Source: Escherichia coli
GTDB taxonomy: Bacteria; Pseudomonadota; Gammaproteobacteria; Enterobacterales; Enterobacteriaceae
Direction: 5' to 3' (one strand)
Assembly: GCF_001677475.2 (NCBI RefSeq)
Contig: NZ_CP015229.1
Length of the DNA stretch: 64,000 nucleotides
In this document: positions 2,950 through 64,000 of the stretch, one piece after another
Numbering within the stretch: position 1 is the first letter of the stretch
Layout of the letters: each line of letters opens with the position of its first letter
Notes under the pieces: generated by a model
Databases searched by the model: none
What the model saw: the letters and a program-made list of their open reading frames with translations, nothing else
What the model was told of the DNA's origin: nothing
Made by a program: the position numbers and the translations under genes

Positions 2950-3043
2950 GCTGTTACGCCTGTTTCATTCCGCCCGATAGTAAAATTCGGGCAAAGCATC
3001 CCCGTGTAGCGCCATAAATGAGCTACAGGAGAAAAGGTTGAAA

Positions 3044-40150: not shown

Positions 40151-40393
40151 ATAGAGCGAGGACGCTAACAGGAACAATGACTCAGGATGAGGGTCAGGAG
40201 CGCCAGGAGGCGAAGACAGAGGATTGTCAGGAAGACAAACGTCCGGAGACGTAATTAAACGGAAATGGAATCAACACGGATTGTTCCGGCTAATGGAAAA
40301 ACAGGGTGTGTTGGCGGCCTGCAAGGATTGTAAGACCCGTTAAGGGTTATGAGTCAGGAAAAAAGGCGACAGAGTAATCTGTCGCCTTTTTTC
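40151..40393 (+). ncRNA. csrC: CsrC small RNA (CsrA-sequestering)
   Basis: Many GGA motifs (caggatgagggtcaggagcgccaggaggcgaag...); ends in gcgacagagtaatctgtcgcctttttt terminator. Confidence 0.9.
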
Positions 40394-49356: not shown

Positions 49357-49389
49357 AAAAAACCTGCCAGCGATGGCAGGTTTTTTTTT
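49357..49389 (+). terminator. Intrinsic terminator after typA
   Basis: cctgccagcgatggcagg hairpin followed by nine T. Confidence 0.85.
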
Positions 49390-51355: not shown

Positions 51356-52621
51356 ATGCTCACGAAAAAGAAATGGGCGTTATTTAGTCTATTAACACTG
51401 TGTGGCGGTACAATTTATAAATTACCGTCGCTGAAAGATGCGTTTTATATCCCGATGCAGGAATATTTCCATTTGACCAATGGTCAAATTGGTAATGCTA
51501 TGTCGGTAAACTCATTTGTCACCACAGTGGGCTTTTTTCTGTCTATTTATTTTGCCGATAAACTACCGCGCAGATACACCATGTCACTCTCACTCATTGC
51601 GACAGGATTACTGGGTGTTTATTTGACGACAATGCCGGGGTATTGGGGCATCCTCTTTGTCTGGGCGCTATTTGGCGTTACTTGCGACATGATGAACTGG
51701 CCGGTCTTGCTCAAGTCGGTAAGTCGATTGGGCAATAGCGAACAACAAGGTCGGTTGTTTGGCTTCTTCGAAACAGGGCGTGGCATTGTCGATACCGTGG
51801 TGGCATTTTCTGCGTTGGCAGTATTTACCTGGTTTGGCAGTGGCTTATTGGGTTTTAAAGCAGGCATCTGGTTCTATTCCCTTATTGTGATTGCCGTAGG
51901 CATTATTATTTTCTTTGTCCTGAATGACAAAGAAGAGGCACCGTCCGTTGAGGTGAAAAAAGAAGACGGAGCATCGCAAAACACCAGTATGACCTCGGTG
52001 CTGAGAGACAAAACCATCTGGCTTATCGCTTTCAACGTCTTCTTCGTTTACGCGGTTTACTGTGGCCTGACATTCTTCATTCCATTCCTGAAAAACATCT
52101 ATCTATTGCCCGTTGCGTTGGTGGGGGCTTACGGCATCATTAACCAATATTGTCTGAAAATGATTGGAGGACCGATTGGTGGCATGATTTCAGATAAGAT
52201 CCTGAAATCGCCGAGTAAATATCTATGCTACACCTTTATCATCAGTACCGCTGCGCTCGTACTGTTGATTATGCTGCCGCACGAAAGTATGCCGGTCTAT
52301 TTAGGGATGGCATGTACATTAGGCTTTGGCGCGATAGTCTTTACACAGCGAGCCGTATTTTTTGCACCTATCGGCGAAGCAAAAATTGCTGAAAATAAAA
52401 CAGGCGCGGCGATGGCGTTGGGTAGCTTTATTGGTTACGCCCCGGCGATGTTCTGCTTCAGTCTGTATGGCTACATTCTGGATTTAAATCCGGGGATTAT
52501 TGGCTACAAAATCGTGTTTGGCATTATGGCCTGCTTCGCATTCTGTGGTGCGGTGGTTTCCGTAATGCTGGTTAAGCGTATTAGCCAACGTAAGAAAGAG
52601 ATGCTGGCGGCTGAAGCTTAA
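51356..52621 (+). CDS. yihN: MFS transporter YihN
   Basis: 421 aa polytopic membrane protein. Confidence 0.85.
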   Translation: MLTKKKWALFSLLTLCGGTIYKLPSLKDAFYIPMQEYFHLTNGQIGNAMSVNSFVTTVGFFLSIYFADKLPRRYTMSLSLIATGLLGVYLTTMPGYWGILFVWALFGVTCDMMNWPVLLKSVSRLGNSEQQGRLFGFFETGRGIVDTVVAFSALAVFTWFGSGLLGFKAGIWFYSLIVIAVGIIIFFVLNDKEEAPSVEVKKEDGASQNTSMTSVLRDKTIWLIAFNVFFVYAVYCGLTFFIPFLKNIYLLPVALVGAYGIINQYCLKMIGGPIGGMISDKILKSPSKYLCYTFIISTAALVLLIMLPHESMPVYLGMACTLGFGAIVFTQRAVFFAPIGEAKIAENKTGAAMALGSFIGYAPAMFCFSLYGYILDLNPGIIGYKIVFGIMACFAFCGAVVSVMLVKRISQRKKEMLAAEA

Positions 52622-52680: not shown

Positions 52681-53469
52681 TCAGGATACTTCTTGCTCAG
52701 CAACCACCAGTTCAACATTCTCTTCACTTAACAACTGGCAGAAAGAATTGGGAGGCGGGGCATCAGTAAAAAAAGCCCTGACATTCCGTGCATTGCCAAT
52801 TGAAACGGCAGCAGACGCGGCAAACTTCGTATGATCGGCCACTAACAATGTATTCCGCGCATGTTTAATCATCGTTCTTGCGACTAACGCTTCATTGACA
52901 TCAAATTCCAGTAGGGTGCCGTCATGTTCAATGGCACCTATACTGGTGATTAAATAATCTGCGCGGAAGCCTTCAATAAAATCCACGGCTCCTGGGCCGA
53001 TAATCCCGCCGTTATGAGCGCGTAAAGTGCCTCCCGGCACCATCACTTCAATATCCTGATTCTTATAAAGAATCTGTGCCACACGTAGGCTGTTAGTGAT
53101 AATGCGTAAATCACGACGGTTGAGTAATGCCCTGGCAACGGCTTCTACGGTTGTACCGATGGTGATAAAGACGGTACAGCGTTCGGGAAGGTAATCGGCG
53201 ACTGCCTCAGCGATCGCCCGTTTCTCGGCGGTGAGCGAAAGTTCCCGTTGCTCAAAAGCGGTATTCATGACGCTGGAGACGCGCCCGGCCCCTCCATGAT
53301 GACGGGTGATCAACCCCTGCTCACTGAGTTTTCGGATATCCCGGCGCACGGTTTGCGTTGAAACATCCAGCAGTTGTGCCAGTTCTTCAATATTCATATA
53401 ACCGCGTTCTGCGATTAGATGAACGAGTTGGTCATGGCGTGGATTACCTGTCACTTCGATGATACTCAT
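52681..53469 (-). CDS. DeoR-family transcriptional repressor (YihW/CsqR-like)
   Basis: 262 aa; N-terminal HTH (IEELAQLLDVSTQTVRRDIRKL) and sugar-phosphate-binding C-terminal domain; homologous but not identical to K-12 YihW as I recall it. Confidence 0.85.
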   Translation of the reverse strand: MSIIEVTGNPRHDQLVHLIAERGYMNIEELAQLLDVSTQTVRRDIRKLSEQGLITRHHGGAGRVSSVMNTAFEQRELSLTAEKRAIAEAVADYLPERCTVFITIGTTVEAVARALLNRRDLRIITNSLRVAQILYKNQDIEVMVPGGTLRAHNGGIIGPGAVDFIEGFRADYLITSIGAIEHDGTLLEFDVNEALVARTMIKHARNTLLVADHTKFAASAAVSIGNARNVRAFFTDAPPPNSFCQLLSEENVELVVAEQEVS

Positions 53470-53508
53470 GAATACTCCCTTGCCCCTCCTCGGTATATGT
53501 TTACCATT

Positions 53509-54405
53509 TTACGCATAAAGTGACAAAAATGATTCGGTTTGCTCACGATTAGGAATGCCGGCCCGACCGCCAGGCTGGGTACATTTCATCGCGGCAACCG
53601 CACTGGCAAAACGAATAGCCTCTTTTGTTGGCATTTTTTCTGCCAACGCTACCGCGAGTGCGCCGTGAAAAACATCGCCTGCTCCAGTGGTATCAACCAC
53701 ATTGACAGAAAATGCCTCCTGTTGACACAAATGATCATCTTCAATCCACAACGATCCTTCAGAACCCAGCGTAACATACACTTTACCTGCTGTTTGTGTC
53801 GTTGCCTGGAACAAACCTTCTTCAGGTGACTGCAGGCCAGTCATGCGTTTCAGCCCCGGTGTTGAGAACACGGCGTGATCGGCAAGCGCGACAAGTGGAG
53901 AAATATCCTGCGGTGTCATATCGGCGTCTAAAAGCGTTGTCACCCCCGCAAGGCGCGCTAGCGAGAATGCTTTTTCAGTACCGCTATGCCAGCGAACATC
54001 GGCCAGAATCAGATCATAACGAGAGAAATCGATCGCTTCTAACCATTCGGCATCAGTACCGAGATCGGGACTTGGATAATTAACGATAATCCGTTCGCCA
54101 TGCTGATCAACGAGGATCGCTGATTGCGACGAACGGGCGTTAGGATATCGGCGGCAAAATGCGGTATTGACGCCCCAACCCTCAAGTTCTGCAAGTAAGG
54201 TATTTCCACAACTGTCATCGCCGACGCGACCGATGAAATCAACCTCCACGCCAAGCTTTGCGATTGCAACAGCGGCTGTTGCTGCCGGGCCGCCACCAAT
54301 CTCAAGATAATGATTTGCCTGATATTTCCCGCCGCCATCCGGCAGAGTGAGCAAAGAATAAATCCTGTCCTGAACTGTGATACCCACGCATGCAATTTTT
54401 GTCAT
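53509..54405 (-). CDS. PfkB-family sugar kinase (YihV-like)
   Basis: Start at [16 protein letters not shown]; [11 protein letters not shown] and [12 protein letters not shown] motifs; ORF track extends to 54456. Confidence 0.85.
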
Positions 54406-54577
54406 ATTTGTCTTGTCCTGTTTAATTTTGTCGTCTTTGGTCAATTTAAATGACACAAATGATCAAATTAGTGATGTGTGTCGTGTTTTTGAACATAAAT
54501 TACAAATATGCTCAAAAACAGACGAAAACGAATTTTCAATTGTCATTATTTTGTCAATGTCAGACAGGAGAGTATTC

Positions 54578-55456
54578 ATGGCAACCATTGCATTTCTCGG
54601 GCTGGGGCAGATGGGTAGCCCAATGGCTAACAATCTATTGCGAAAAGGGCATTCATTGCAGGTATTTGATGTCAATGCACAGGCCGTCGATGCGCTAGTT
54701 ACGCAGGGGGCCACTGCGGCACAAACCCCAGCGGAAGCGGCAGCAGGCGCTGAATTTATCATCACTATGCTTCCCAATGGTGACATTGTTCGACAGGTTC
54801 TGTTGGGGGAAAAAGGCGTCTGTGAGGCTGTTTCATCTGACGCGTTATTGATTGATATGTCGACTATTCATCCCTTACAGACCGATGCATTAATACGGGA
54901 GTTACAAGAAAAAGGCATCAGTATGATGGACGCCCCCGTGGGCAGAACATCCGTGAATGCGATTGATGGCACATTGCTGATTTTAGCGGGTGGCACTGAT
55001 GAGCAGATTGCGCGTGCACGCCCGATTCTCATGTGCATGGGTAATGAGCTGGTCGAGGCTGGCGGCCCAGGAATGGGGATCCGCGTGAAGCTAATTAACA
55101 ACTATATGAGCATTGCGCTTAATGCGCTGTCCTCCGAGGCCGCTGTGTTATGTGAGTCACTGGGATTAAATCTTGATGTCGCAATTAAGGTGATGAGTGG
55201 TACGGCAGCAGGGAAAGGACATTTTACGACCACCTGGCCTGGCAAAGTGCTGAAAGGCGATCTTTCACCCGCCTTCATGGTGGATCTGGCGTTGAAAGAT
55301 CTGCGTATTGCAGTTGACGTCGCTCGGGAGACGGGGGCACCGCTCAATATGGGGATTGCAGCAGAAAGTTATTACGCCGCAGCAAGTCAAGACGGCAAAG
55401 GGCGGCAGGACTGGAGCGCCCTGCTAAATCAGGTTCGCCAGCAGGCTGGTCTTTAA
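54578..55456 (+). CDS. NAD-dependent beta-hydroxyacid dehydrogenase-family reductase (YihU-like)
   Basis: Start at [20 protein letters not shown] (Rossmann GLGQMG) with RBS caggagag upstream; about 292 aa. Confidence 0.85.
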
Positions 55457-55480
55457 TTTTATCTATTAACAGGAGTTTCT

Positions 55481-56368
55481 ATGTCATCCCACTTCACCCC
55501 ATTTACGCTGAAAGATATCTCCCGCCCAGGTGGTGGATTCGCCATGTTAGCTGTCGATCAGCGTGAGGCCATGCGCCTGATGTTTGCGGCAGCAGGGCAG
55601 CCCAAACCCATCGCCGACAGTGTACTCACCGATTTTAAAGTTGCCGCGACCCGAATCCTTTCTCCTTATGCTTCTGCCGTTCTGGCGGATAAACAATTTT
55701 GTCTTGAGCAAATAGTCGAGCAGGGCGCTGTTGCTAATTCTTGCGGCCTGATTGTCGCTGCCGATCTTTTTATCCCAGGTAATGGCATCCCGGTTGATAG
55801 CGTTGAAATAGATATGTCCGTCGACCCGCATAAAGCCCGTGAAATGGGGGCTAAGGCAATGAAATTACTTGTACTCTGGCGTGAAGATGAACCCGCAGAG
55901 GAACGTCTGGCAATGGTTGATAAATTTGTTCGTCGCTGCCGTAGTGCCGGACTGGTTAGCATTATTGAACCTGTGGTGCGTCCACCTCGTCGCGGTTGGG
56001 ACTTTGATCGTGAAAGCGCCATTGCCGCGGCCGCCGCAGAGCTTGGTGGAACAGAGGCTGATCTTTACAAAGCCGAGATGCCATTAGGGGGCAAAGGCGA
56101 TGAAAAAACCTTACTTGCCGCCTGTCAGCAACTTAACGATCAGATGAAGATGCCGTGGGTAATTCTTTCTTCTGGCGTTGATGCCGATATTTTTGGCCGT
56201 GCAGTAAGTATTGCCATGAAAGGTGGGGCGTCGGGCTTCCTGGCTGGACGAGCGGTTTGGGCGTCGGTTGTTGGTGCACAAGATCCACAAACTATGCTGC
56301 GCGATGTCTCCGTTCCACGCTTGCAACGGCTGGCTGAAATTGTCGATGAAGGTATCGCGCAACGCTAA
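55481..56368 (+). CDS. Class I (LacD-like) ketose-phosphate aldolase (YihT-like)
   Basis: 295 aa; [14 protein letters not shown] and [12 protein letters not shown] motifs. Confidence 0.85.
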
Positions 56369-56400
56369 TCCCCTATGGATATCGATTCTGGAGAATAACA

Positions 56401-57411
56401 ATGGATAAAAGTACCCAGGTTTTATTTTCAGATATTGGGAAAGTCACCACTCAATATGTTGAAGTACCACACCAGGAACTTAAACCGCACGAAGTGCGGA
56501 TTGCGCCTGTGTTCTATGGGATATGCGGTTCGGATCTGCATGTTCTGAAAGGCGGTCATCCGTTTGCCAAACCACCTGTCGTCCCCGGTCATGAAATTGC
56601 AGCGCGCGTTGCGGAAGTTGGCAGCGACGTTAAAAATGTACAGCCGGGCGATCATGTTGTGGTCGATCCCATCATGGCTTGCATGGAATGCCGAGCCTGC
56701 AAAGCAGGACGTTTTAATCTTTGTGAACCACCGCAGGTTGCTGGTTTTCGCGCACCGGGCTTTGCTCGCTCACAACACATTGTTCCTGCGCGTAATTGCC
56801 ATGTCGCACCAGCCTCTTTACCGCTAAAAGTGTTAGCCTTTGCCGAACCGGCGGCTTGTGCTCGTCACTGCGTTAACCGAATGCCGAAAGCTTCTCTGGA
56901 AAGCGTACTGGTGATTGGTGCCGGAACGATAGGCTTATCCATCGTGCAGGCACTGCGCATTATGGGGGCAGGTAAGATTACCGTGATTGAACCTGACGCT
57001 GCCAAACGCGCGCTGGCGTTAAAGCTGGGCGCAGCAGAAGTTTGGGCACCAGGTGAGCTGGCCGCAGATGTGCGATTTACGGGGGCGATTGATGTCGTTG
57101 CAGCGCAGGCCACGCTTAACGATGCATGTACCCGTGTATATGCCGGAGGCACCGTCGTGTGCATGGGCGTACCAAGTGGGCCGCGTGAAATACCATTACC
57201 TATGATGCAACGTTTCGAGCGTGACTTGCTCAACTCTGGCATGTACATCCCTGAAGATTTCGATGCTGTTATCGAATGGCTGGCGGATGGGCGGTTTGAT
57301 ACCAGTGAACTGGTTACCGATTTATTTGCCATTGAGGATGCAGCGGCGGCATTCGAACGCGCGCAGCAAAATGACTCCATAAAGGTCATGCTGCAATTTG
57401 CGCCGGAATGA
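56401..57411 (+). CDS. Zinc-dependent medium-chain dehydrogenase/reductase
   Basis: 336 aa; catalytic-zinc GHE motif (PVVPGHEIAARV), four-cysteine structural zinc cluster (CMECRACKAGRFNLC), Rossmann VIGAGTIGL. Confidence 0.85.
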   Translation: MDKSTQVLFSDIGKVTTQYVEVPHQELKPHEVRIAPVFYGICGSDLHVLKGGHPFAKPPVVPGHEIAARVAEVGSDVKNVQPGDHVVVDPIMACMECRACKAGRFNLCEPPQVAGFRAPGFARSQHIVPARNCHVAPASLPLKVLAFAEPAACARHCVNRMPKASLESVLVIGAGTIGLSIVQALRIMGAGKITVIEPDAAKRALALKLGAAEVWAPGELAADVRFTGAIDVVAAQATLNDACTRVYAGGTVVCMGVPSGPREIPLPMMQRFERDLLNSGMYIPEDFDAVIEWLADGRFDTSELVTDLFAIEDAAAAFERAQQNDSIKVMLQFAPE

Positions 57412-57480
57412 TTTTCTAAATCTCTGTCTGGCGCTGCGTCACGTCAGCGCCACCCTACAACAATTAAAAAGGACACTGCG

Positions 57481-58914
57481 ATGAGTCAAATCACCAGTCC
57501 TGCAACTTATTCAATTAGTCGGCCACAGGACGTAATTGATATTGTTAATAAGAACTCTGCAATCAACACCAGTATCGGCGTTATTTTTATTGCTTTGGGC
57601 GGCATATTGATTGATGCCTACCAGGCGGCGATGGTGGGGTTTGGTAATAAATACATTGCCGCTCAATTCGGCATTTCGCCGGGTCTTGCTGCAACCGTCA
57701 ATGCATCAGTATTAATCGCCGCGTTAATTGGCGGTTTATTAGCGAACCGAGTAATAAACCGCTTTGGGCAAAAGCGGGCATTTATTATTGGCATGGGGCT
57801 GTGCACCATCGGTGCTGCAGCGGTAGCTATTGCTCCCAGTATCTGGTGGGTGCTGGTGTGCCGCGTCATCATGGGCTTTGGTTTAGGCATCGACTTCCCT
57901 TTGGCAACCAATGCCGTGGCAGAGCTTCGTGGTTCAACGTCGAAGAAAACCGGAACGTCGGTCAACCTCTGGCAAATGGCCTGGTATGTTTCGACAACCG
58001 TTGTTTATTTGGTGCTTTTGCCGCTGCTTCTGTCGGGTATCGCTGAAGAACAATTGTGGCGTTACGGAATATTCATCGGAGCTATTTTTGCAGTCATCTT
58101 CATGATTTTGCGTTACTTCTTTATTGGTGAATCCGCAATGTGGGCTGCACGCGTCGGGCGTTACCAGGAAGCGTGCGACATTCTGGGAAAACGTTATGGT
58201 GTTCAGGCTCGCGTTGCGGCATCGGGTACAACAGAAGCGAAATTCTCGGAAAAAGCAGAGAATAAATACAGTGGTGGATATGGCATCTTATTTAATGATC
58301 GTTACCGCAAACGCACCATTCTTGGTTGTGTCGTGGCAACCATGCAGGCGTGGCAATATAACGCCGTAGGTGTTTATCTTCCTCTTACGTTGGCGGGAAT
58401 AATAAGTGGCGGGCTTACTGGCGCGTTGACCGGTTCTGCCGTCGTGAATGCCCTTTGTGGGGTGACAGGTGGGATGATCGGCTCGTTTATTCTCCAACGA
58501 CTGGGTACTCGCCGACAGTCGATGTATGGATTTGCTGTTGTGACCTTAGCATTGCTGTCGTTAGGCGCACTGGCAACGACTAATCCCTGGCTGTCTTTAG
58601 GGTTATTGGGATCAATTATTTTCTTCCATTCAGCGGGTCCTGGTGGGCTGGGCATGACCATTGCCACACTCTCTTATCCTCCCGCTATTCGTCCTACTGG
58701 GGTCGGATTTGCCCGCGCTATTATGCGCACAGGGGCAATTGCAGGACTCATTTTCTGGCCGATGCTGTGGGGTACGTTGAAAACTGAAGCGTTTTATTGG
58801 TTGGCAATTGTGCCATTCCTGGGGTTCCTGACCTGCGTATTGATTAATTGGGAACCTTTGGGAGCAAATGTTGATGCTGAGGATGCAGAGGTTCTGGCTG
58901 AATTGAAGAAATAA
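57481..58914 (+). CDS. MFS transporter, subfamily unclear
   Basis: 477 aa polytopic membrane protein with a central hydrophilic loop. Confidence 0.8.
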   Translation: MSQITSPATYSISRPQDVIDIVNKNSAINTSIGVIFIALGGILIDAYQAAMVGFGNKYIAAQFGISPGLAATVNASVLIAALIGGLLANRVINRFGQKRAFIIGMGLCTIGAAAVAIAPSIWWVLVCRVIMGFGLGIDFPLATNAVAELRGSTSKKTGTSVNLWQMAWYVSTTVVYLVLLPLLLSGIAEEQLWRYGIFIGAIFAVIFMILRYFFIGESAMWAARVGRYQEACDILGKRYGVQARVAASGTTEAKFSEKAENKYSGGYGILFNDRYRKRTILGCVVATMQAWQYNAVGVYLPLTLAGIISGGLTGALTGSAVVNALCGVTGGMIGSFILQRLGTRRQSMYGFAVVTLALLSLGALATTNPWLSLGLLGSIIFFHSAGPGGLGMTIATLSYPPAIRPTGVGFARAIMRTGAIAGLIFWPMLWGTLKTEAFYWLAIVPFLGFLTCVLINWEPLGANVDAEDAEVLAELKK

Positions 58915-58951
58915 ATTAATGCGCATCGGCTTAAACCGATGCGCATTAATT
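58914..58951. repeat. 16-bp perfect inverted repeat (stem-loop or operator)
   Basis: aattaatgcgcatcgg cttaaa ccgatgcgcattaatt, starting at the stop codon of the upstream transporter gene. Confidence 0.8.
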
Positions 58952-59012
58952 CAAACTGCCCACGTTTAGTGGTTCGTATCCCAGATTTCTCGCCTACCAG
59001 GAGAGGAAAATT

Positions 59013-60362
59013 ATGTCTGAAAAGTTACCCGCACCGCGTGAAGGGCTTTCCGGTAAAGCCATGAGACGTGTCGTTATGGGCAGTTTCGCAGGCGCGTTAA
59101 TGGAATGGTATGACTTCTTTATTTTTGGCACGGCAGCAGGACTGGTATTTGCACCGCTGTTTTATCCAGACAGCGATCCTTTTATAGGTCTTATAGCTTC
59201 CTTTGCGACCTTTGGTGTCGGTTTTCTGACTCGTCCTTTAGGTGGCATCGTCTTTGGTCATTTTGGCGATAAAATCGGGCGAAAAATAACACTTATCTGG
59301 ACGCTGGCTATTGTCGGTTGCTCCACATTTTTGATTGGTTTTATTCCGACGTATCAGGAAATTGGCATTTGGGCACCGCTTGTATTAATGGTGCTGCGTT
59401 TGATTCAGGGCTTTGGTCTTGGTGGCGAGTACGGCGGAGCGGCATTGATGACCATAGAATCAGCGCCCGAATCCCGACGCGGATTTTTAGGTTCACTCCC
59501 GCAAACGGCTGCGTCTGTGGGTATTATGCTGGCAACCGGTATTTTTGCTCTCTGTAACCATTTTCTTACTTCGGAGCAGTTTCTCTCCTGGGGATGGCGC
59601 ATTCCGTTTTGGCTTTCTGCGGTGATGTTGATCGTTGGGCTGTTTATCCGCCTGCATACCGAAGAAACGCTGGATTTTCAAAAGCAAAAAACGACGAATA
59701 ATAAAGAAAAGTCCGTTCCTCCGTTGATTGAATTATTCAAAAAACATCCACGAAATATTTTATTGGCACTGGGTGCGAGGCTGGCGGAAAGTGTCTCCTC
59801 TAATATTATTAACGCCTTTGGTATTGTCTATATTTCCAGCCAATTAGCATTGTCGCGAGATATTCCCCTGACGGGTATGTTGATTGCCTCGGCGATCGGT
59901 ATTTTCAGTTGTCCATTGGTTGGATGGTTATCAGATCGTATAGGTCAAAAAAGTCTGTATTTGTCGGGAGCAGGATTTTGTGTCCTGTTCGCGTTTCCTT
60001 TCTTCTTATTACTGGATAGCAAAAGTACGCTCATCATCTGGTGCAGTATGATCCTCGGCTACAACTTAGGTCCGACGATGATGTTTGCCGTGCAGCCAAC
60101 ACTTTTCACCCGCATGTTCGGTACCAAAGTACGATATACCGGCCTTTCTTTTGCTTATCAATTTTCCGCGATTCTTGGCGGACTAAGCCCCCTTATCGCC
60201 TCAAGTTTGCTGGCGCTAGGGGGAGGAAAACCGTGGTATGTCGCTCTGTTTTTATTTGCTGTCTCAGTTCTTTCCTTTGTTTGCGTCTGGCTGATTGAGC
60301 CGACCGATGAACAAGAAACCGCTTCTTACCGCTACATCAGGGAACAATCTCATGAAAACTGA
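59013..60362 (+). CDS. MFS transporter of metabolite:H+ symporter type (ProP/KgtP/ShiA-like)
   Basis: 449 aa; WYDFFIFG and GLGGEYGGAALM signature segments. Confidence 0.8.
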   Translation: MSEKLPAPREGLSGKAMRRVVMGSFAGALMEWYDFFIFGTAAGLVFAPLFYPDSDPFIGLIASFATFGVGFLTRPLGGIVFGHFGDKIGRKITLIWTLAIVGCSTFLIGFIPTYQEIGIWAPLVLMVLRLIQGFGLGGEYGGAALMTIESAPESRRGFLGSLPQTAASVGIMLATGIFALCNHFLTSEQFLSWGWRIPFWLSAVMLIVGLFIRLHTEETLDFQKQKTTNNKEKSVPPLIELFKKHPRNILLALGARLAESVSSNIINAFGIVYISSQLALSRDIPLTGMLIASAIGIFSCPLVGWLSDRIGQKSLYLSGAGFCVLFAFPFFLLLDSKSTLIIWCSMILGYNLGPTMMFAVQPTLFTRMFGTKVRYTGLSFAYQFSAILGGLSPLIASSLLALGGGKPWYVALFLFAVSVLSFVCVWLIEPTDEQETASYRYIREQSHEN

Positions 60363-61239
60363 ACGAAAAAACGAGCATTACCTGGCGCTACAACAGGCGT
60401 TTGACGCGCCATGGCCTGGGCCTGTAGGAGAGTTAGTGACGCTGGAAAAAGGCAATATTCACCTGCAGATTTATCCGCATGATGGTGCCAGGATAACCTC
60501 GTTAAAGGCATTTGGTTCTGAAGTATTACGCCAATGGCAGCCGCAGCGCAGAGCTTTTCAGTATGGCTGTTTCCCAATGGTGCCGTGGGCAGGGCGACTG
60601 GGGAATGCGACGCTGAATGCTGGTGGGCAATGTTATTCTTTACCCGCCAATAAACCACCACATGCGTTGCATGGTATGGCTTGTTACTCAACGTGGGAAA
60701 TCATCGACAAAACAATAGATTCCCTGACTTTACGTATGCCCCTGGCTTCACCGTGGCCCTGGCAAGGGGAAGTGATTCAGACTTTTTTGCTGGAGAACGA
60801 TGCGCTGGTTTTGCAACTGGAAATCCATTCACATACCGATACATTCCCGGCCTCTGCAGGCTGGCATCCGTGGTTTGCGAAAAAGCTGACTCCGCAAAAT
60901 ACAGAATCGTTGCAGGTGCTTTTTGATGCGGACTGGCAAGAGGAAGCGGGTAGTGATGAACTGCCAACTGGAAATCGCATCTCTCCTCAAGCTGGTCCCT
61001 GGGATGACTGTTTTGGTTTTTATGACGGGGTGAAGGTTAAGTTACTGTGGCCTGGTAAACTCACGATGACCATGACCTCTTCTGCAAACAGTCTGGTGGT
61101 ATTTGATAAACAGCCCGATGCCACCTGTGTTAATCCGCTTACTCAGGCACCTAACGCAATAAATCTAACGCCGGAATTGGTGACATCAGATAAGCCGCTG
61201 GTCATCGAAACTCGTTGGCAATTTACACCTGAATCTTAA
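60352..61239 (+). CDS. Aldose 1-epimerase family protein (YihR-like mutarotase)
   Basis: Start at MKTERKNEHYLALQQAFD, overlapping the upstream transporter stop by 11 nt; ORF track starts at 60295. Confidence 0.75.
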   Translation: MKTERKNEHYLALQQAFDAPWPGPVGELVTLEKGNIHLQIYPHDGARITSLKAFGSEVLRQWQPQRRAFQYGCFPMVPWAGRLGNATLNAGGQCYSLPANKPPHALHGMACYSTWEIIDKTIDSLTLRMPLASPWPWQGEVIQTFLLENDALVLQLEIHSHTDTFPASAGWHPWFAKKLTPQNTESLQVLFDADWQEEAGSDELPTGNRISPQAGPWDDCFGFYDGVKVKLLWPGKLTMTMTSSANSLVVFDKQPDATCVNPLTQAPNAINLTPELVTSDKPLVIETRWQFTPES

Positions 61240-61249
61240 CCATTCATCT

Positions 61250-61290
61250 ATTGCGAAAAAGCCAGTGAAATTACTCTGCTTTTTCGCAAT
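61250..61290. repeat. 13-bp perfect inverted repeat with 15-nt loop
   Basis: attgcgaaaaagc cagtgaaattactct gctttttcgcaat, 11 nt after the mutarotase stop. Confidence 0.75.
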
Positions 61291-61379
61291 CAGCATCACA
61301 AGATTACCCTTATTGCCACATAGCCAAACCCATCCTTTCCCGCTACAGTTAATTTCTTGTGGCGCGAAAGGAGGCAAAA

Positions 61380-61979
61380 ATGCTCTATATCTTTGATTTA
61401 GGTAATGTGATTGTCGATATCGACTTTAACCGTGTGCTGGGAGCCTGGAGCGATTTAACGCGTATTCCGCTGGCATCTCTTAAGAAGAGTTTTCATATGG
61501 GGGAGGCGTTTCATCAGCATGAGCGTGGGGAAATTAGCGACGAAGCGTTCGCAGAGGCGCTGTGTCATGAGATGGCTCTACCGCTAAGCTACGAGCAGTT
61601 CTCCCACGGTTGGCAGGCAGTGTTTGTCGCGCTGCGCCCGGAAGTGATCGCCATCATGCATAAACTGCGTGAGCAGGGGCATCGCGTGGTGGTGCTTTCC
61701 AATACCAACCGCCTGCATACCACCTTCTGGCCGGAAGAATACCCGGAAATTCGTGATGCTGCTGACCATATCTATCTGTCGCAAGATCTGGGGATGCGCA
61801 AACCTGAAGCACGAATTTACCAGCATGTTTTGCAGGCGGAAGGTTTTTCACCCAGCGATACGGTCTTTTTCGACGATAACGCCGATAATATAGAAGGAGC
61901 CAATCAGCTGGGCATTACCAGCATTCTGGTGAAAGATAAAACCACCATCCCGGACTATTTCGCGAAGGTGTTATGCTAA
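61380..61979 (+). CDS. yihX: HAD-family alpha-D-glucose-1-phosphate phosphatase YihX
   Basis: Start at [16 protein letters not shown] (199 aa); HAD motif I. Confidence 0.9.
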
Positions 61980-62845
61980 AAACCATTCAGGACAAAGCCA
62001 GGCACCGTACCCGTCCACTATGGGCCTGGCTAAAACTACTCTGGCAACGCATTGATGAGGACAACATGACAACCCTGGCAGGTAACCTTGCCTATGTGTC
62101 GTTGCTCTCATTAGTGCCGCTGGTTGCCGTTGTTTTTGCGCTTTTCGCCGCTTTTCCCATGTTTTCCGACGTCAGCATTCAGTTGCGTCACTTTATTTTT
62201 GCCAACTTTCTGCCTGCTACTGGCGATGTTATTCAGCGGTATATCGAACAATTTGTTGCCAATTCCAACAAGATGACCGCCGTTGGCGCGTGCGGGCTGA
62301 TCGTCACAGCGCTATTGTTGATGTACTCCATCGATAGCGCGTTGAATACCATCTGGCGCAGTAAACGAGCGCGACCAAAAATTTACTCGTTTGCCGTGTA
62401 CTGGATGATTTTAACGCTGGGGCCGCTGCTGGCAGGGGCCAGTCTGGCGATCAGTTCCTATTTGCTCTCCCTGCGCTGGGCGAGCGATCTCAATACTGTC
62501 ATCGACAACGTGCTGCGTATTTTTCCGTTGCTGTTGTCGTGGATCTCCTTCTGGTTGCTGTACAGCATTGTTCCTACCATCCGCGTACCTAACCGCGACG
62601 CGATTGTCGGCGCGTTTGTCGCCGCGCTCCTGTTCGAAGCAGGAAAGAAAGGTTTCGCGCTTTATATCACCATGTTCCCGTCATATCAGCTCATTTACGG
62701 TGTGCTGGCGGTGATCCCCATTCTCTTCGTCTGGGTCTACTGGACATGGTGTATCGTCTTGCTTGGCGCGGAAATTACTGTCACTCTCGGGGAATACCGC
62801 AAACTAAAACAAGCTGCTGAACAAGAAGAAGACGACGAACCATGA
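61973..62845 (+). CDS. yihY: YihY/BrkB-family inner membrane protein
   Basis: 290 aa polytopic membrane protein; overlaps the yihX stop. Confidence 0.9.
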
Positions 62846-63279
62846 TTGCATTAATTCAACGCGTAACCCGTGCCAGCGTCACCGTGGAGGGAGAAGTGAC
62901 GGGCGAAATTGGCGCGGGACTTTTGGTGTTATTGGGTGTCGAAAAGGATGACGACGAACAGAAAGCAAACCGTCTGTGCGAGCGTGTGCTCGGCTACCGC
63001 ATCTTTAGCGATGCCGAAGGCAAGATGAATCTCAACGTGCAACAGGCGGGCGGCAGTGTACTGGTGGTTTCCCAGTTTACCCTCGCCGCAGATACCGAAC
63101 GGGGGATGCGCCCAAGTTTCTCCAAAGGCGCATCACCGGATCGCGCAGAGGCGTTATATGACTATTTCGTCGAACGCTGCCGCCAGCAAGAGATGAACAC
63201 GCAAACAGGACGCTTCGCTGCCGATATGCAAGTATCGCTGGTCAATGATGGCCCCGTGACATTCTGGTTGCAGGTATGA
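62842..63279 (+). CDS. dtd: D-aminoacyl-tRNA deacylase
   Basis: 145 aa; [19 protein letters not shown]-terminus and SQFTLAAD motif. Confidence 0.95.
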
Positions 63280-64000
63280 GCCAGCTTCCAGGGTTGTCAC
63301 GGGAAACAAGAGAGAGTATCGCTATGTATCACCTTCGGGTTCCACAAACAGAAGAAGAATTAGAGCGTTACTATCAGTTTCGCTGGGAAATGTTGCGTAA
63401 GCCCCTGCATCAACCAAAAGGTTCGGAACGCGACGCGTGGGATGCGATGGCGCATCACCAGATGGTCGTCGACGAGCAGGGTAATTTGGTGGCAGTAGGG
63501 CGGCTGTATATTAATGCCGACAATGAAGCGTCCATTCGCTTTATGGCCGTTCATCCCGACGTGCAGGACAAAGGGCTAGGAACGCTGATGGCGATGACCC
63601 TGGAGTCGGTGGCGCGTCAGGAAGGCGTTAAGCGCGTGACCTGTAGCGCCCGTGAAGACGCGGTGGAGTTTTTCGCCAAGCTGGGTTTTGTTAATCAGGG
63701 AGAAATCACCACGCCAACCACCACGCCGATTCGCCATTTTTTGATGATTAAACCTGTCGCCACTCTGGATGATATTTTGCATCGCGGCGACTGGTGCGCG
63801 CAGCTGCAACAGGCGTGGTACGAACATATCCCGCTAAGCGAAAAAATGGGCGTGCGCATTCAACAATATACCGGGCAAAAATTTATCACTACCATGCCAG
63901 AAACCGGCAATCAGAATCCGCACCATACGCTGTTTGCCGGGAGTTTATTCTCACTGGCAACGCTCACCGGTTGGGGGCTTATCTGGCTGATGCTGCGCGA
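63276..64000 (+). CDS. yiiD: GNAT acetyltransferase/thioesterase fusion protein YiiD, 5' part only
   Basis: ATG at 63276 overlaps the dtd stop (ATGA); [35 protein letters not shown]...; frame stays open to the window end. Confidence 0.8.

What the first reader, a model, noticed from the sequence alone, without database searches (positions are those of the whole stretch)
61250..61290. 13-bp perfect inverted repeat at the end of the variant cluster
attgcgaaaaagc, a 15-nt loop, then gctttttcgcaat, 11 nt after the mutarotase stop and about 90 nt before yihX. It likely marks the 3' boundary of the variant operon, though it lacks a T tract. Together with the 58914-58951 palindrome and a weaker hairpin at 57430-57451 (ggcgctgcgtcacgtcagcgcc), three of the intergenic spacers in this island carry strong stem-loops.
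Basis: seen in the sequence. Interest (0 to 1): 0.35.

Follow-up and report, generated by a model that had tools for sequence, protein, structure and literature searches.

The report
Decayed terminator hairpin ending an operon
The 13-bp inverted repeat is real and belongs to the variant sugar-catabolism gene cluster; it is the remodelled remnant of that operon's transcription terminator, an ordinary kind of operon-end RNA stem-loop and not a new kind of element.

Summary
It is far beyond chance. The refutation test fails. K-12-type genomes share sequence only from 61313 onward, so the hairpin lies in variant-specific DNA. It is single-copy and identical in 1380 of 1384 E. coli genomes that carry it. 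Its core (A5-GCCAGTGAAATTACTCTGC-T5) is 23/29 identical to a canonical intrinsic terminator that follows the orthologous epimerase gene in a related cluster. In Escherichia the GC stem next to the T-tract has decayed (-0.7 versus about -10 kcal/mol). The A-tract, the T-tract and an extra ATTGCG/CGCAAT now form the stem, so no free U-tail remains. Right after it comes the second-strongest C-over-G tract of the whole window. That matches the published architecture of Rho-dependent transcript 3' ends protected by a U-less stem-loop. I take this as the most likely mechanism, but it is inferred, not shown. Verdict: ordinary, a new member of a known kind, low interest.

The parts
60352..61239 (+). 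Aldose 1-epimerase (mutarotase-like) gene. It is the last gene of the variant 8-gene cluster, its stop TAA is at 61237-61239, and it overlaps the end of MFS2 by 11 nt.
   Evidence: ORF list; RefSeq annotation of the identical locus L001; last gene of the conserved cluster in 20+ other genomes.
61250..61262 (+). 5' arm of the hairpin, ATTGCGAAAAAGC. AAAAAGC corresponds to the A-tract and stem base of the ancestral terminator. ATTGCG is the outer extension.
   Evidence: homology alignments.
61263..61277 (+). 15-nt 'loop' CAGTGAAATTACTCT, the decayed upper stem and tetraloop of the ancestral terminator. It still forms a 4-bp mini-helix (61264-61267 with 61272-61275) around the tetraloop AAAT.
   Evidence: Fold. 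23/29 identity of 61256-61284 to the L033 terminator CAAAAGCCGCTGAAATTAGCGGCTTTTT. The only Escherichia substitution here, 61271 T>G in L004, falls in the tetraloop.
61278..61290 (+). 3' arm GCTTTTTCGCAAT. It contains the former U-tract (T5), now fully paired with the A5 run, followed by the outer extension CGCAAT.
61291..61350 (+). C-rich, G-poor tract right after the hairpin (22 C, 6 G in 60 nt); a candidate Rho-loading (rut-like) region. It overlaps the start of the conserved yihX flank.
   Evidence: C/G 3.67; the 78-nt window starting at 61269 has a C-minus-G excess of 0.256, the second highest of the 64-kb window (99.96th percentile).
61313..61379 (+). Start of the sequence shared with K-12-type genomes: the conserved yihX upstream region. 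It holds a possible promoter, TAGCCA (61321-61326), 17 nt, TACAGT (61344-61349), and the inverted repeat 61333-61372 that includes the yihX Shine-Dalgarno sequence.
   Evidence: Breakpoint. Conservation across genera. The promoter assignment is my reading of the sequence; the pattern scan did not flag it.
61380..61979 (+). yihX (glucose-1-phosphatase), the first gene of the conserved downstream flank.
   Evidence: 100% identical to the K-12 protein.
57430..57451 (+). Intercistronic hairpin between the Zn-dependent dehydrogenase and MFS1 genes. It has no U-tail.
   Evidence: Conserved in 10 genomes, and 5 of 12 predicted pairs keep pairing through double changes.
58914..58951 (+). Intercistronic palindrome/hairpin between MFS1 and MFS2. 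It starts at the last base of the MFS1 stop codon and has no U-tail on the + strand.
   Evidence: Conserved in 14 genomes, and 6 of 8 predicted pairs keep pairing through double changes.

Best explanation
The repeat is an RNA stem-loop in the 3' untranslated end of the variant yih-type operon (yihU-like reductase, aldolase, Zn-dehydrogenase, MFS1, MFS2, epimerase). It descends from the operon's intrinsic terminator. In the Escherichia lineage the GC-rich upper stem decayed. The A-tract, the T-tract and six further complementary bases on each side now form a 13-bp stem that buries the former U-tract. It therefore no longer works as a classical hairpin-plus-U-tail terminator. The most likely present role is as follows. 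Transcripts that pass the epimerase stop codon become ribosome-free. Rho loads on the C-rich, G-poor RNA right after the hairpin and stops transcription further downstream. 3'-to-5' exonucleases then trim back to the base of the stem, which protects the operon mRNA. Any RNA polymerase that Rho does not stop reads on into yihX. Shown here: position, structure, island membership, homology to terminators, conservation, downstream base composition. Inferred: Rho involvement, the exonuclease-barrier role and read-through. The confidence of 0.55 is for the whole mechanism; that the element is a terminator-derived operon-end stem-loop of the variant cluster I hold at about 0.85.
For: (1) Structure and non-randomness.
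(2) It belongs to the variant cluster, not to the yihX flank.
(3) Homology to terminators. Positions 61256-61284 are 23/29 identical to the canonical terminator behind the orthologous epimerase in L033/L034, and 0 of 2000 shuffles reach that score. They are 19/29 identical to the one in C. amalonaticus L016. Other orthologous clusters also end with GC-stem plus T-tract terminators (L007, L032, L038, L006, L011, L020).
(4) Decay. The stem directly 5' of the T-tract is -0.7 kcal/mol here, against -8.5 to -12.6 in relatives and -11.9 and -15.9 for two canonical terminators of this window. The tail after the full 13-bp stem scores 0.07.
(5) The downstream 78 nt has the second-highest C-over-G excess of the 64-kb window. 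Term-seq work in E. coli found that Rho-dependent transcripts end right after stable stem-loops that lack U-rich tails and are followed by C-over-G enrichment, and that these stems protect against PNPase and RNase II (PMC6061677).
(6) Constraint. 1380 of 1384 E. coli genomes are identical over 61246-61294. Across six Escherichia sequences plus the window there are no variable sites in the arms and only 2 in 61194-61330, against about 10 per 100 nt in the flanking coding sequence. A cryptic-clade Escherichia with 13.5% third-codon-position divergence in the epimerase gene has 1 change in the 73-nt spacer, in the tetraloop.
(7) The operon's other spacers carry U-less hairpins conserved with compensatory changes. 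RNA stem-loops are therefore a recurring feature of this transcript.
Against: There are no transcript data, so Rho dependence, the position of the 3' end and any effect on stability are untested. The hairpin is dispensable in close relatives: Citrobacter L005, L008 and L037 have the same epimerase-yihX junction with no hairpin, and L035 has lost most of it. Most of the C-rich tract lies in the conserved yihX promoter region, which K-12-type genomes also have, so it may be conserved for another reason. Only 89 nt separate the stem from the yihX start, which is tight for Rho loading before ribosomes engage. The conservation extends over the whole intergenic region, so it is not specific to the stem. 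Stem pairs never vary within Escherichia, so there is no covariation for this hairpin itself.
Confidence: 0.55

Rival explanations
1. It is a functionless relic. The terminator decayed after the cluster came to sit directly upstream of the co-oriented yihX operon, where read-through is harmless. The perfect 13-bp stem was made by mutation, through intrastrand template switching that 'corrects' quasi-palindromes, and not by selection.
For: Relatives with the same junction lack any hairpin (L005, L008, L037). L035 shows partial deletion of the L009-type hairpin. Compared with relatives whose T-tract is followed directly by (C/T)ATCACAA (L032, L007, L038), E. coli has about 9 extra bases (CGCAATCAG) between TTTTT and CATCACAA. 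Six of them are the exact complement of ATTGCG on the other side. That is what template switching would produce. Quasi-palindrome template-switch mutagenesis is established in E. coli (my own knowledge; Ripley 1982; work from the Lovett laboratory).
Against: The arms are invariant in 1380 of 1384 E. coli genomes from several phylogroups and in a cryptic Escherichia clade with 13.5% synonymous-site divergence next door. A neutral 41-nt element would be expected to have picked up several changes. This could also reflect a local recombination patch or constraint on neighbouring promoter DNA.
Confidence: 0.2
2. It still works as an intrinsic (Rho-independent) terminator, perhaps a weak or factor-assisted one. 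It would use the T5 run as U-tract and the small inner helix plus GC pairs as the hairpin, or the whole stem together with NusA/NusG.
For: It is homologous to canonical terminators, and its T-tract score of 3.7 equals theirs. The A-tract/T-tract arrangement is that of bidirectional terminators. The tool's pattern scan misses this class even when canonical, so a negative scan is not informative.
Against: The hairpin available while T5 is still in the RNA:DNA hybrid is only -0.7 kcal/mol, against -8.5 to -12.6 in working-type relatives. After the full 13-bp stem the next 9 nt are CAGCAUCAC, with a tail score of 0.07. The loop is 15 nt, against the usual 3-8.
Confidence: 0.15
3. It is a DNA site: a palindromic operator for a dimeric regulator. 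That regulator could be the cluster's DeoR-family repressor, or a factor acting on the yihX promoter, which begins about 30 bp downstream.
For: It is a perfect 13-bp palindrome with a 15-bp spacer, centred about 85 bp upstream of the presumed yihX transcription start. An 11/13 copy of the arm lies at 54637-54649 near the start of the yihU-like gene, and a 12/13 copy lies at 60874-60886.
Against: There is no arm-like sequence in the divergent promoter region 54406-54577, where the repressor should act. Matches with up to 2 mismatches are only modestly above chance (8 against 3.9 expected, and 1 of 100 shuffles also gave 8). Citrobacter clusters whose regulator is 92% identical lack the palindrome. 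The element is homologous to RNA terminators, and its Citrobacter R56-type counterparts keep the structure while changing the sequence. The 12/13 copy is coding sequence (WFAKKL).
Confidence: 0.05
4. It is a copy of a dispersed repeat or the end of a mobile element (REP/BIME, MITE, IS end, recombinase site) that created the island boundary.
For: It lies 22 nt from the breakpoint between the two cluster types. One strain (O157:H7 TR01) has a junction exactly at the loop/3'-arm border.
Against: There is exactly one place per genome in all 1384-1386 carrier genomes, and no other copy in the window. There is no Rfam family hit. The spacer of 15 does not fit tyrosine-recombinase core sites (6-8 bp; my own knowledge). 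Homologues sit at the same place behind the same gene in other genera, whatever lies downstream.
Confidence: 0.02

Closest known systems
[quoted passage not shown]
   Same: A stable stem-loop just after a stop codon, no U-rich tail, and C-over-G enrichment right downstream. Its energy is in the range of terminator hairpins (-18 kcal/mol).
   Different: Rho dependence and exonuclease trimming are untested here. This hairpin keeps an A-rich tract inside its 5' arm, whereas the published class is described as not associated with upstream A-tracts. That reflects its descent from an intrinsic terminator.
Canonical intrinsic terminators with A-tract, GC stem and T-tract, such as those behind the orthologous epimerase genes (L033, L016, L007, L032) and at 40358-40393 and 49357-49386 of this window
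   Same: Same position behind the last gene of the operon. The core is homologous (23/29 identical to L033), with an A5 run, a T5 run and the same AAAT tetraloop.
   Different: The GC stem next to the T-tract is lost (-0.7 against about -10 kcal/mol). The T-tract is fully buried in a longer stem extended by ATTGCG/CGCAAT. The formal loop is 15 nt, and no U-rich sequence follows the stem.
Intercistronic and 3' mRNA-stabilising stem-loops such as REP sequences in malE-malF (Newbury et al. 1987; my own knowledge)
   Same: A U-less stem-loop after a coding region that would block 3'-to-5' exonucleases. The operon has two more such hairpins between cistrons.
   Different: It is single-copy and unrelated in sequence to REP, so it is not part of a dispersed family.

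Membership tests
Intrinsic (Rho-independent) terminator | Stable GC-rich stem immediately 5' of the U-tract | tested here: not met
   The stem available 5' of T5 is GCCAGTGAAATTACTCTGC at -0.7 kcal/mol, against -8.5 to -12.6 in orthologous terminators and -11.9 and -15.9 for two canonical terminators of the window.
Intrinsic (Rho-independent) terminator | U-rich tract directly after the completed hairpin | tested here: not met
   After the 13-bp stem comes CAGCATCACAAGATT, with a tail score of 0.07. On the minus strand the score is 0.26. The T5 run is inside the 3' arm.
Intrinsic (Rho-independent) terminator | Short loop (3-8 nt) | tested here: inconclusive
   The formal loop is 15 nt. A 4-bp inner helix leaves an AAAT tetraloop but has bulges on both sides.
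Intrinsic (Rho-independent) terminator | Descent from, and same position as, terminators in orthologous operons | tested here: met
   23/29 identity to the L033 terminator, with 0 of 2000 shuffles as good. It occupies the same place after the epimerase stop.
Intrinsic (Rho-independent) terminator | Factor-independent transcript release in vitro | not testable with these tools
   Needs single-round transcription assays.
Rho-dependent 3'-end module (protective stem-loop plus downstream rut) | Energetically stable stem-loop without a U-rich tail | tested here: met
   -18.1 kcal/mol; z = -4.5 in context; tail score 0.07.
Rho-dependent 3'-end module (protective stem-loop plus downstream rut) | C-over-G enrichment immediately downstream | tested here: met
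   C/G is 3.67 over 61291-61350. The 78-nt window from 61269 is at the 99.96th percentile of the 64-kb window.
Rho-dependent 3'-end module (protective stem-loop plus downstream rut) | Steady-state 3' end at the stem base, bicyclomycin-sensitive, extended in exonuclease mutants | not testable with these tools
   Needs Term-seq with and without bicyclomycin, and pnp/rnb mutants, in a carrier strain.
REP/BIME or other dispersed palindromic repeats | Many copies per genome | tested here: not met
   One place per genome in every carrier genome. The window holds no further copy beyond near-matches at roughly chance level.
Curated RNA families (Rfam 15) | Match to a covariance model | tested here: not met
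   No match at E <= 1 in 54000-64000 on either strand.
Operator of the cluster's DeoR-family regulator | The same half-site present in the regulated promoter region and conserved with the regulator | tested here: not met
   No arm-like site in 54406-54577. It is absent from Citrobacter clusters whose regulator is 92% identical.

The most novel reading that the evidence does not exclude
The change from a GC-stem terminator to a long A/U-rich stem that buries its own U-tract might be an adaptive rewiring and not decay. It would abolish intrinsic termination so that the yihX-yihY-dtd-fabY genes are co-expressed with the catabolic operon when the latter is induced. The stem would be kept as an mRNA-stabilising cap for processed transcripts. 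Together with the two covarying intercistronic hairpins, it would form a conserved set of RNA 'punctuation' that sets the relative levels of the segments of an as yet uncharacterised sulfo-sugar-type catabolic operon.
Probability: 0.1. Interest if true: 0.35.

Novelty: new member of a known kind. Interest (0 to 1): 0.15.

Why it matters
The main value is for annotation. The hairpin fixes the 3' end of the variant cluster's transcription unit. It also shows that the right-hand breakpoint between the two alternative yih-type clusters of E. coli lies at 61313, just upstream of the yihX promoter region. It is a clean natural example of how an intrinsic terminator decays into a U-less stem-loop. 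That bears on the origin of the protective hairpins seen at Rho-dependent 3' ends, and it warns that terminator predictors will miss this operon end. If the cluster is studied functionally, the three hairpins are the obvious elements to test for segmental mRNA stability. The cluster is present in about a quarter of E. coli, including Nissle 1917, ST131 and ATCC 25922. None of this would surprise a specialist.

Tried and rejected
- Rfam scan of 54000-64000 at E <= 1 found nothing.
- Consensus promoter/terminator scans of 56000-64000 and 61150-61450 flagged nothing at the hairpin. The same scan also fails on the clearly canonical L033 terminator, because it extends stems through A/T tracts. I therefore replaced it with explicit stem-energy and T-tail calculations.
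- The search for further arm copies in the window gave 8 hits with up to 2 mismatches against 3.9 expected. The 12/13 copy at 60874-60886 is coding sequence (WFAKKL) and I treat it as coincidence.
- Operator hypothesis: no support.
- Dispersed-repeat hypothesis: rejected on copy number.
- Covariation for the terminal hairpin itself was not possible. The arms never vary in Escherichia, and outside Escherichia the element is too remodelled for a column-by-column test. MAFFT misaligned the Citrobacter R56-type sequences, so I compared them pairwise.
- The protein search did not return full-length E. coli copies of the epimerase. The best full-length hit was 75% identical, so no lineages intermediate between Escherichia and Citrobacter were found.
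- Literature searches found no description of this variant cluster or of its hairpins.
- Covariation of the yihX leader stem was inconclusive.
- I did not run a metagenome DNA-pattern scan. It would mostly have returned identical E. coli copies.

Full report
**Observation**

The sequence is as described. ATTGCGAAAAAGC lies at 61250-61262, a 15-nt loop CAGTGAAATTACTCT at 61263-61277, and GCTTTTTCGCAAT at 61278-61290. The arms are 13/13 complementary (pair I2).

The stop codon of the preceding gene is at 61237-61239. The yihX ATG is at 61380, 89 nt after the stem.

As RNA, the 41 nt fold at -18.1 kcal/mol on either strand. A 4-bp inner helix (61264-61267 with 61272-61275) caps the stem with an AAAT tetraloop. 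In 91 nt of context the fold is -20.9 kcal/mol, with z = -4.5 and none of 200 shuffles as stable.

The window holds 4 perfect inverted repeats with arms of at least 13 nt and loops of 3-20 nt. Sixty dinucleotide shuffles gave a mean of 0.017. The repeat is therefore not chance. Two of the other three repeats (40358-40393 and 49357-49386) are textbook A-tract/GC-stem/T-tract terminators. The fourth is the 58914-58951 palindrome.

**Surroundings**

RefSeq annotation of an identical locus (L001), the ORFs and NCBIfam give the following gene order.

| Gene | Coordinates | Strand |
|---|---|---|
| yihN | 51356-52621 | + |
| DeoR/GlpR-family regulator | 52681-53469 | - |
| PfkB-type sugar kinase | 53509-54405 | - |
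| YihU-like reductase | 54578-55456 | + |
| Class I aldolase | 55481-56368 | + |
| Zn-dependent dehydrogenase | 56401-57411 | + |
| MFS transporter 1 | 57481-58914 | + |
| MFS transporter 2 | 59013-60362 | + |
| Aldose 1-epimerase | 60352-61239 | + |
| yihX, then yihY, dtd | from 61380 | + |

- The YihU-like reductase passes the sulfolactaldehyde 3-reductase equivalog model with 580 bits against a cut-off of 348.
- The regulator, kinase and reductase are only 66-76% identical to K-12 CsqR, YihV and YihU.
- The hairpin therefore follows the last gene of a six-gene, co-oriented transcription unit.

**Island or conserved flank?**

Megablast of 61100-61500 against 5,426 complete E. coli genomes matches 5,423 of them. 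Only 1,344 cover the whole query. K-12-type genomes align from query position 214 onward, which is window 61313. Direct alignment with K-12 shows identity starting at TTGCCACATAGCC and no similarity upstream.

- The 87 nt at 61226-61312 occur in 1,386 genomes (25.5%), once per genome. In 1,334 of them the match is 100% identical.
- The 49 nt centred on the hairpin are identical in 1,380 of 1,384 genomes. These include ATCC 8739, 55989, ATCC 25922, Nissle 1917 and ST131 strains.
- One of the four variants has C61262A, which breaks the innermost pair.

So the hairpin is island DNA, 22 nt from the breakpoint, and the refutation condition is not met.

The only K-12-type genome with any of it is O157:H7 strain TR01. 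There, 37 nt of the variant spacer (3' arm plus 22 nt) replace the last 37 nt before the shared flank and remove the csqR stop codon. This is a one-off mosaic.

**Comparative evidence**

A scan of one genome per species with the epimerase protein returned 24 loci. tblastn with all cluster proteins shows that the same eight-gene cluster, with the epimerase last, occurs in these groups:

- Citrobacter, Mixta, Phytobacter, Trabulsiella, Budvicia, Leminorella and Edaphovirga;
- Vibrio;
- several alpha- and beta-proteobacteria;
- Succinivibrionaceae.

In Citrobacter the cluster occupies the same yihN-yihX locus.

Downstream of the epimerase stop, the loci fall into four states.

| Locus or loci | State after the epimerase stop |
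|---|---|
| Cryptic-clade Escherichia (L004) | The E. coli hairpin with one change, 61271 T>G, in the tetraloop |
| Citrobacter sp. R56 (L009) and a relative (L040) | A hairpin of the same build: a 13-bp A-run/T-run stem, a one-base bulge, a 3-bp inner helix. It starts 9 nt after the stop and is followed by the same CAGCA |
| L035 | Most of that hairpin deleted |
| L033/L034, L016, L007, L032, L038, L039, L006, L011, L020 | Ordinary terminators |
| L005, L008, L037 | No hairpin; the conserved yihX flank begins 12-28 nt after the stop |

**What it is**

The core of the E. coli element, AAAAAGCCAGTGAAATTACTCTGCTTTTT (61256-61284), aligns with the terminator CAAAAGCCGCTGAAATTAGCGGCTTTTT of L033 at 23 of 29 positions. 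None of 2,000 shuffles reach that score. It aligns with the C. amalonaticus terminator at 19 of 29.

The differences are concentrated in the GC stem: GCCGCTG/TAGCGGC has become GCCAGTG/TACTCTGC. The table compares the stem immediately 5' of the T-tract.

| Sequence | Stem energy (kcal/mol) |
|---|---|
| L033 | -10.5 |
| L016 | -12.6 |
| L032 | -8.5 |
| L007 | -9.6 |
| E. coli (this window) | -0.7 |
| L009 | -1.8 |
| L040 | 0.0 |

The T-tract score is the same in E. coli and in relatives (3.7 against 3.9). In E. coli the stability comes from A5GC pairing with GCT5, plus ATTGCG pairing with CGCAAT.

Relatives have the T-tract followed directly by (C/T)ATCACAA. E. coli has about nine extra bases (CGCAATCAG) before CATCACAA. 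This suggests, by inference only, that the outer 3' arm was added by copying from the 5' side (quasi-palindrome template switching).

The element is thus a remodelled descendant of the operon's intrinsic terminator.

**How it probably works now**

As a classical terminator it fails on the defining features. No strong stem is available while the T-run is still in the RNA:DNA hybrid. After the full stem the tail is CAGCAUCAC, with a score of 0.07.

What follows the hairpin is notable. Positions 61291-61350 have 22 C and 6 G. The 78-nt window starting at 61269 has the second-highest C-minus-G excess of the whole 64-kb window, at the 99.96th percentile.

Dar and Sorek (PMC6061677) reported the following for E. 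coli Rho-dependent transcripts:

- They end precisely after stable stem-loops with reduced uridine content.
- C-over-G enrichment follows these stem-loops.
- The stems protect the transcripts from PNPase and RNase II.

The present element fits that description. I therefore propose the following sequence of events. Ribosomes leave at 61239. Rho loads on the C-rich RNA and terminates further downstream. Exonucleases trim back to about 61290. The stem then stabilises the operon mRNA, and polymerases that escape Rho read into yihX.

Every step after "fits the description" is inference.

**Evidence for constraint**

- Among the window, five other E. coli and the cryptic-clade Escherichia, only 61240 and 61271 vary within 61194-61330. 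The flanking coding sequence has about ten variable sites per 100 nt.
- Against the cryptic clade, third-codon positions of the epimerase differ at 13.5%, but the 73-nt spacer has a single change.
- This argues against a purely neutral relic.
- The low diversity extends over the entire intergenic region, including the yihX promoter, so it is not specific to the stem.

**Rivals**

- Neutral relic made perfect by template switching: about 0.2.
- Residual intrinsic termination: about 0.15.
- Protein operator: about 0.05. There is no arm-like site in the divergent promoter region, and the palindrome is absent from Citrobacter clusters whose regulator is 92% identical.
- Dispersed repeat or mobile-element end: about 0.02. 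It is single-copy and has no Rfam hit.

**The other two hairpins**

Both are real and lack U-tails on the + strand. Unlike the terminal hairpin, they keep their position across genera and show compensatory changes.

- MFS1-MFS2 hairpin: 6 of 8 predicted pairs retain pairing through changes on both sides, in 14 sequences.
- Dehydrogenase-MFS1 hairpin: 5 of 12 pairs, in 10 sequences.

They are good candidates for intercistronic mRNA-stability or processing elements.

**Verdict**

The element is an operon-end RNA stem-loop derived from an intrinsic terminator. It is a new member of a known kind, of low general interest, and useful for annotating the variant cluster's transcription unit.

Noticed in passing
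L003 (NZ_CP033605.1, E. coli O157:H7 TR01) 2990-3040; corresponds to window 61276-61312: A K-12-type csqR gene is fused to the variant spacer's last 37 nt (3' arm of the hairpin plus 22 nt). These replace exactly 37 nt of K-12-type sequence and remove the csqR stop codon, so the protein is annotated as longer. It is a single mosaic among 5,426 genomes. It could be a real recombinant or an assembly error.
   Followed up: partly
window 57430-57451 and 58914-58951: Both intercistronic hairpins of the operon are conserved in position across Escherichia, Citrobacter, Mixta, Phytobacter, Trabulsiella and metagenome relatives, with compensatory base changes (5 of 12 and 6 of 8 pairs). Neither has a U-tail. 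They look like conserved RNA elements for mRNA stability or processing.
   Followed up: partly
window 52681-61239: The 'variant' cluster is an eight-gene unit found at the yihN-yihX locus in 25.5% of complete E. coli genomes and in Citrobacter. It occurs with the same gene order in Vibrio, alpha- and beta-proteobacteria and Succinivibrionaceae. It has a YihU-equivalog reductase, an aldolase, a kinase and an epimerase. It has a Zn-dependent dehydrogenase and two non-GPH MFS transporters, and no YihQ glycosidase, YihS isomerase or OmpL. I found no description of it in the papers searched; its substrate is unknown.
   Followed up: partly
window 61333-61372: An inverted repeat in the conserved yihX leader pairs UCCUUUC with the yihX Shine-Dalgarno GAAAGGA. 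The pairing potential is kept in Citrobacter and Phytobacter, but without clear covariation. The 5' half overlaps a probable -10 element (TACAGT, 61344-61349). The anti-SD strand might therefore be present only in read-through transcripts from upstream.
   Followed up: partly
window 60874-60886: A 12/13 copy of the hairpin's 5' arm (TTTGCGAAAAAGC) lies inside the epimerase coding sequence, 364 nt upstream, and encodes WFAKKL. A match this close is unexpected by chance (about 0.08 expected in the window by my estimate), but I have no functional reading for it.
   Followed up: no
L009 10397-13135, L007 10397-13141, L035 2889-3876: In some Citrobacter a gene for a MisL-like autotransporter adhesin of about 912 aa is inserted between the epimerase gene and yihX. 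The operon-end hairpin or terminator stays with the epimerase side.
   Followed up: partly
E. coli genome search: Two of the roughly 1,385 occurrences of the spacer are on records labelled as plasmids. I did not examine them.
   Followed up: no
window 60352-60362: The epimerase start overlaps the end of MFS2 by 11 nt, which suggests translational coupling of the last two genes.
   Followed up: no
(protein database): The search with the epimerase returned no full-length E. coli protein above 90% identity, only fragments at 96-99%, although a quarter of E. coli genomes encode it. The closest full-length hits were 75% identical.
   Followed up: no
hit H30 (NZ_LR898868.1): At least one E. coli genome aligns only from window 61406 onward, inside yihX. 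A third kind of junction therefore exists at this locus.
   Followed up: no
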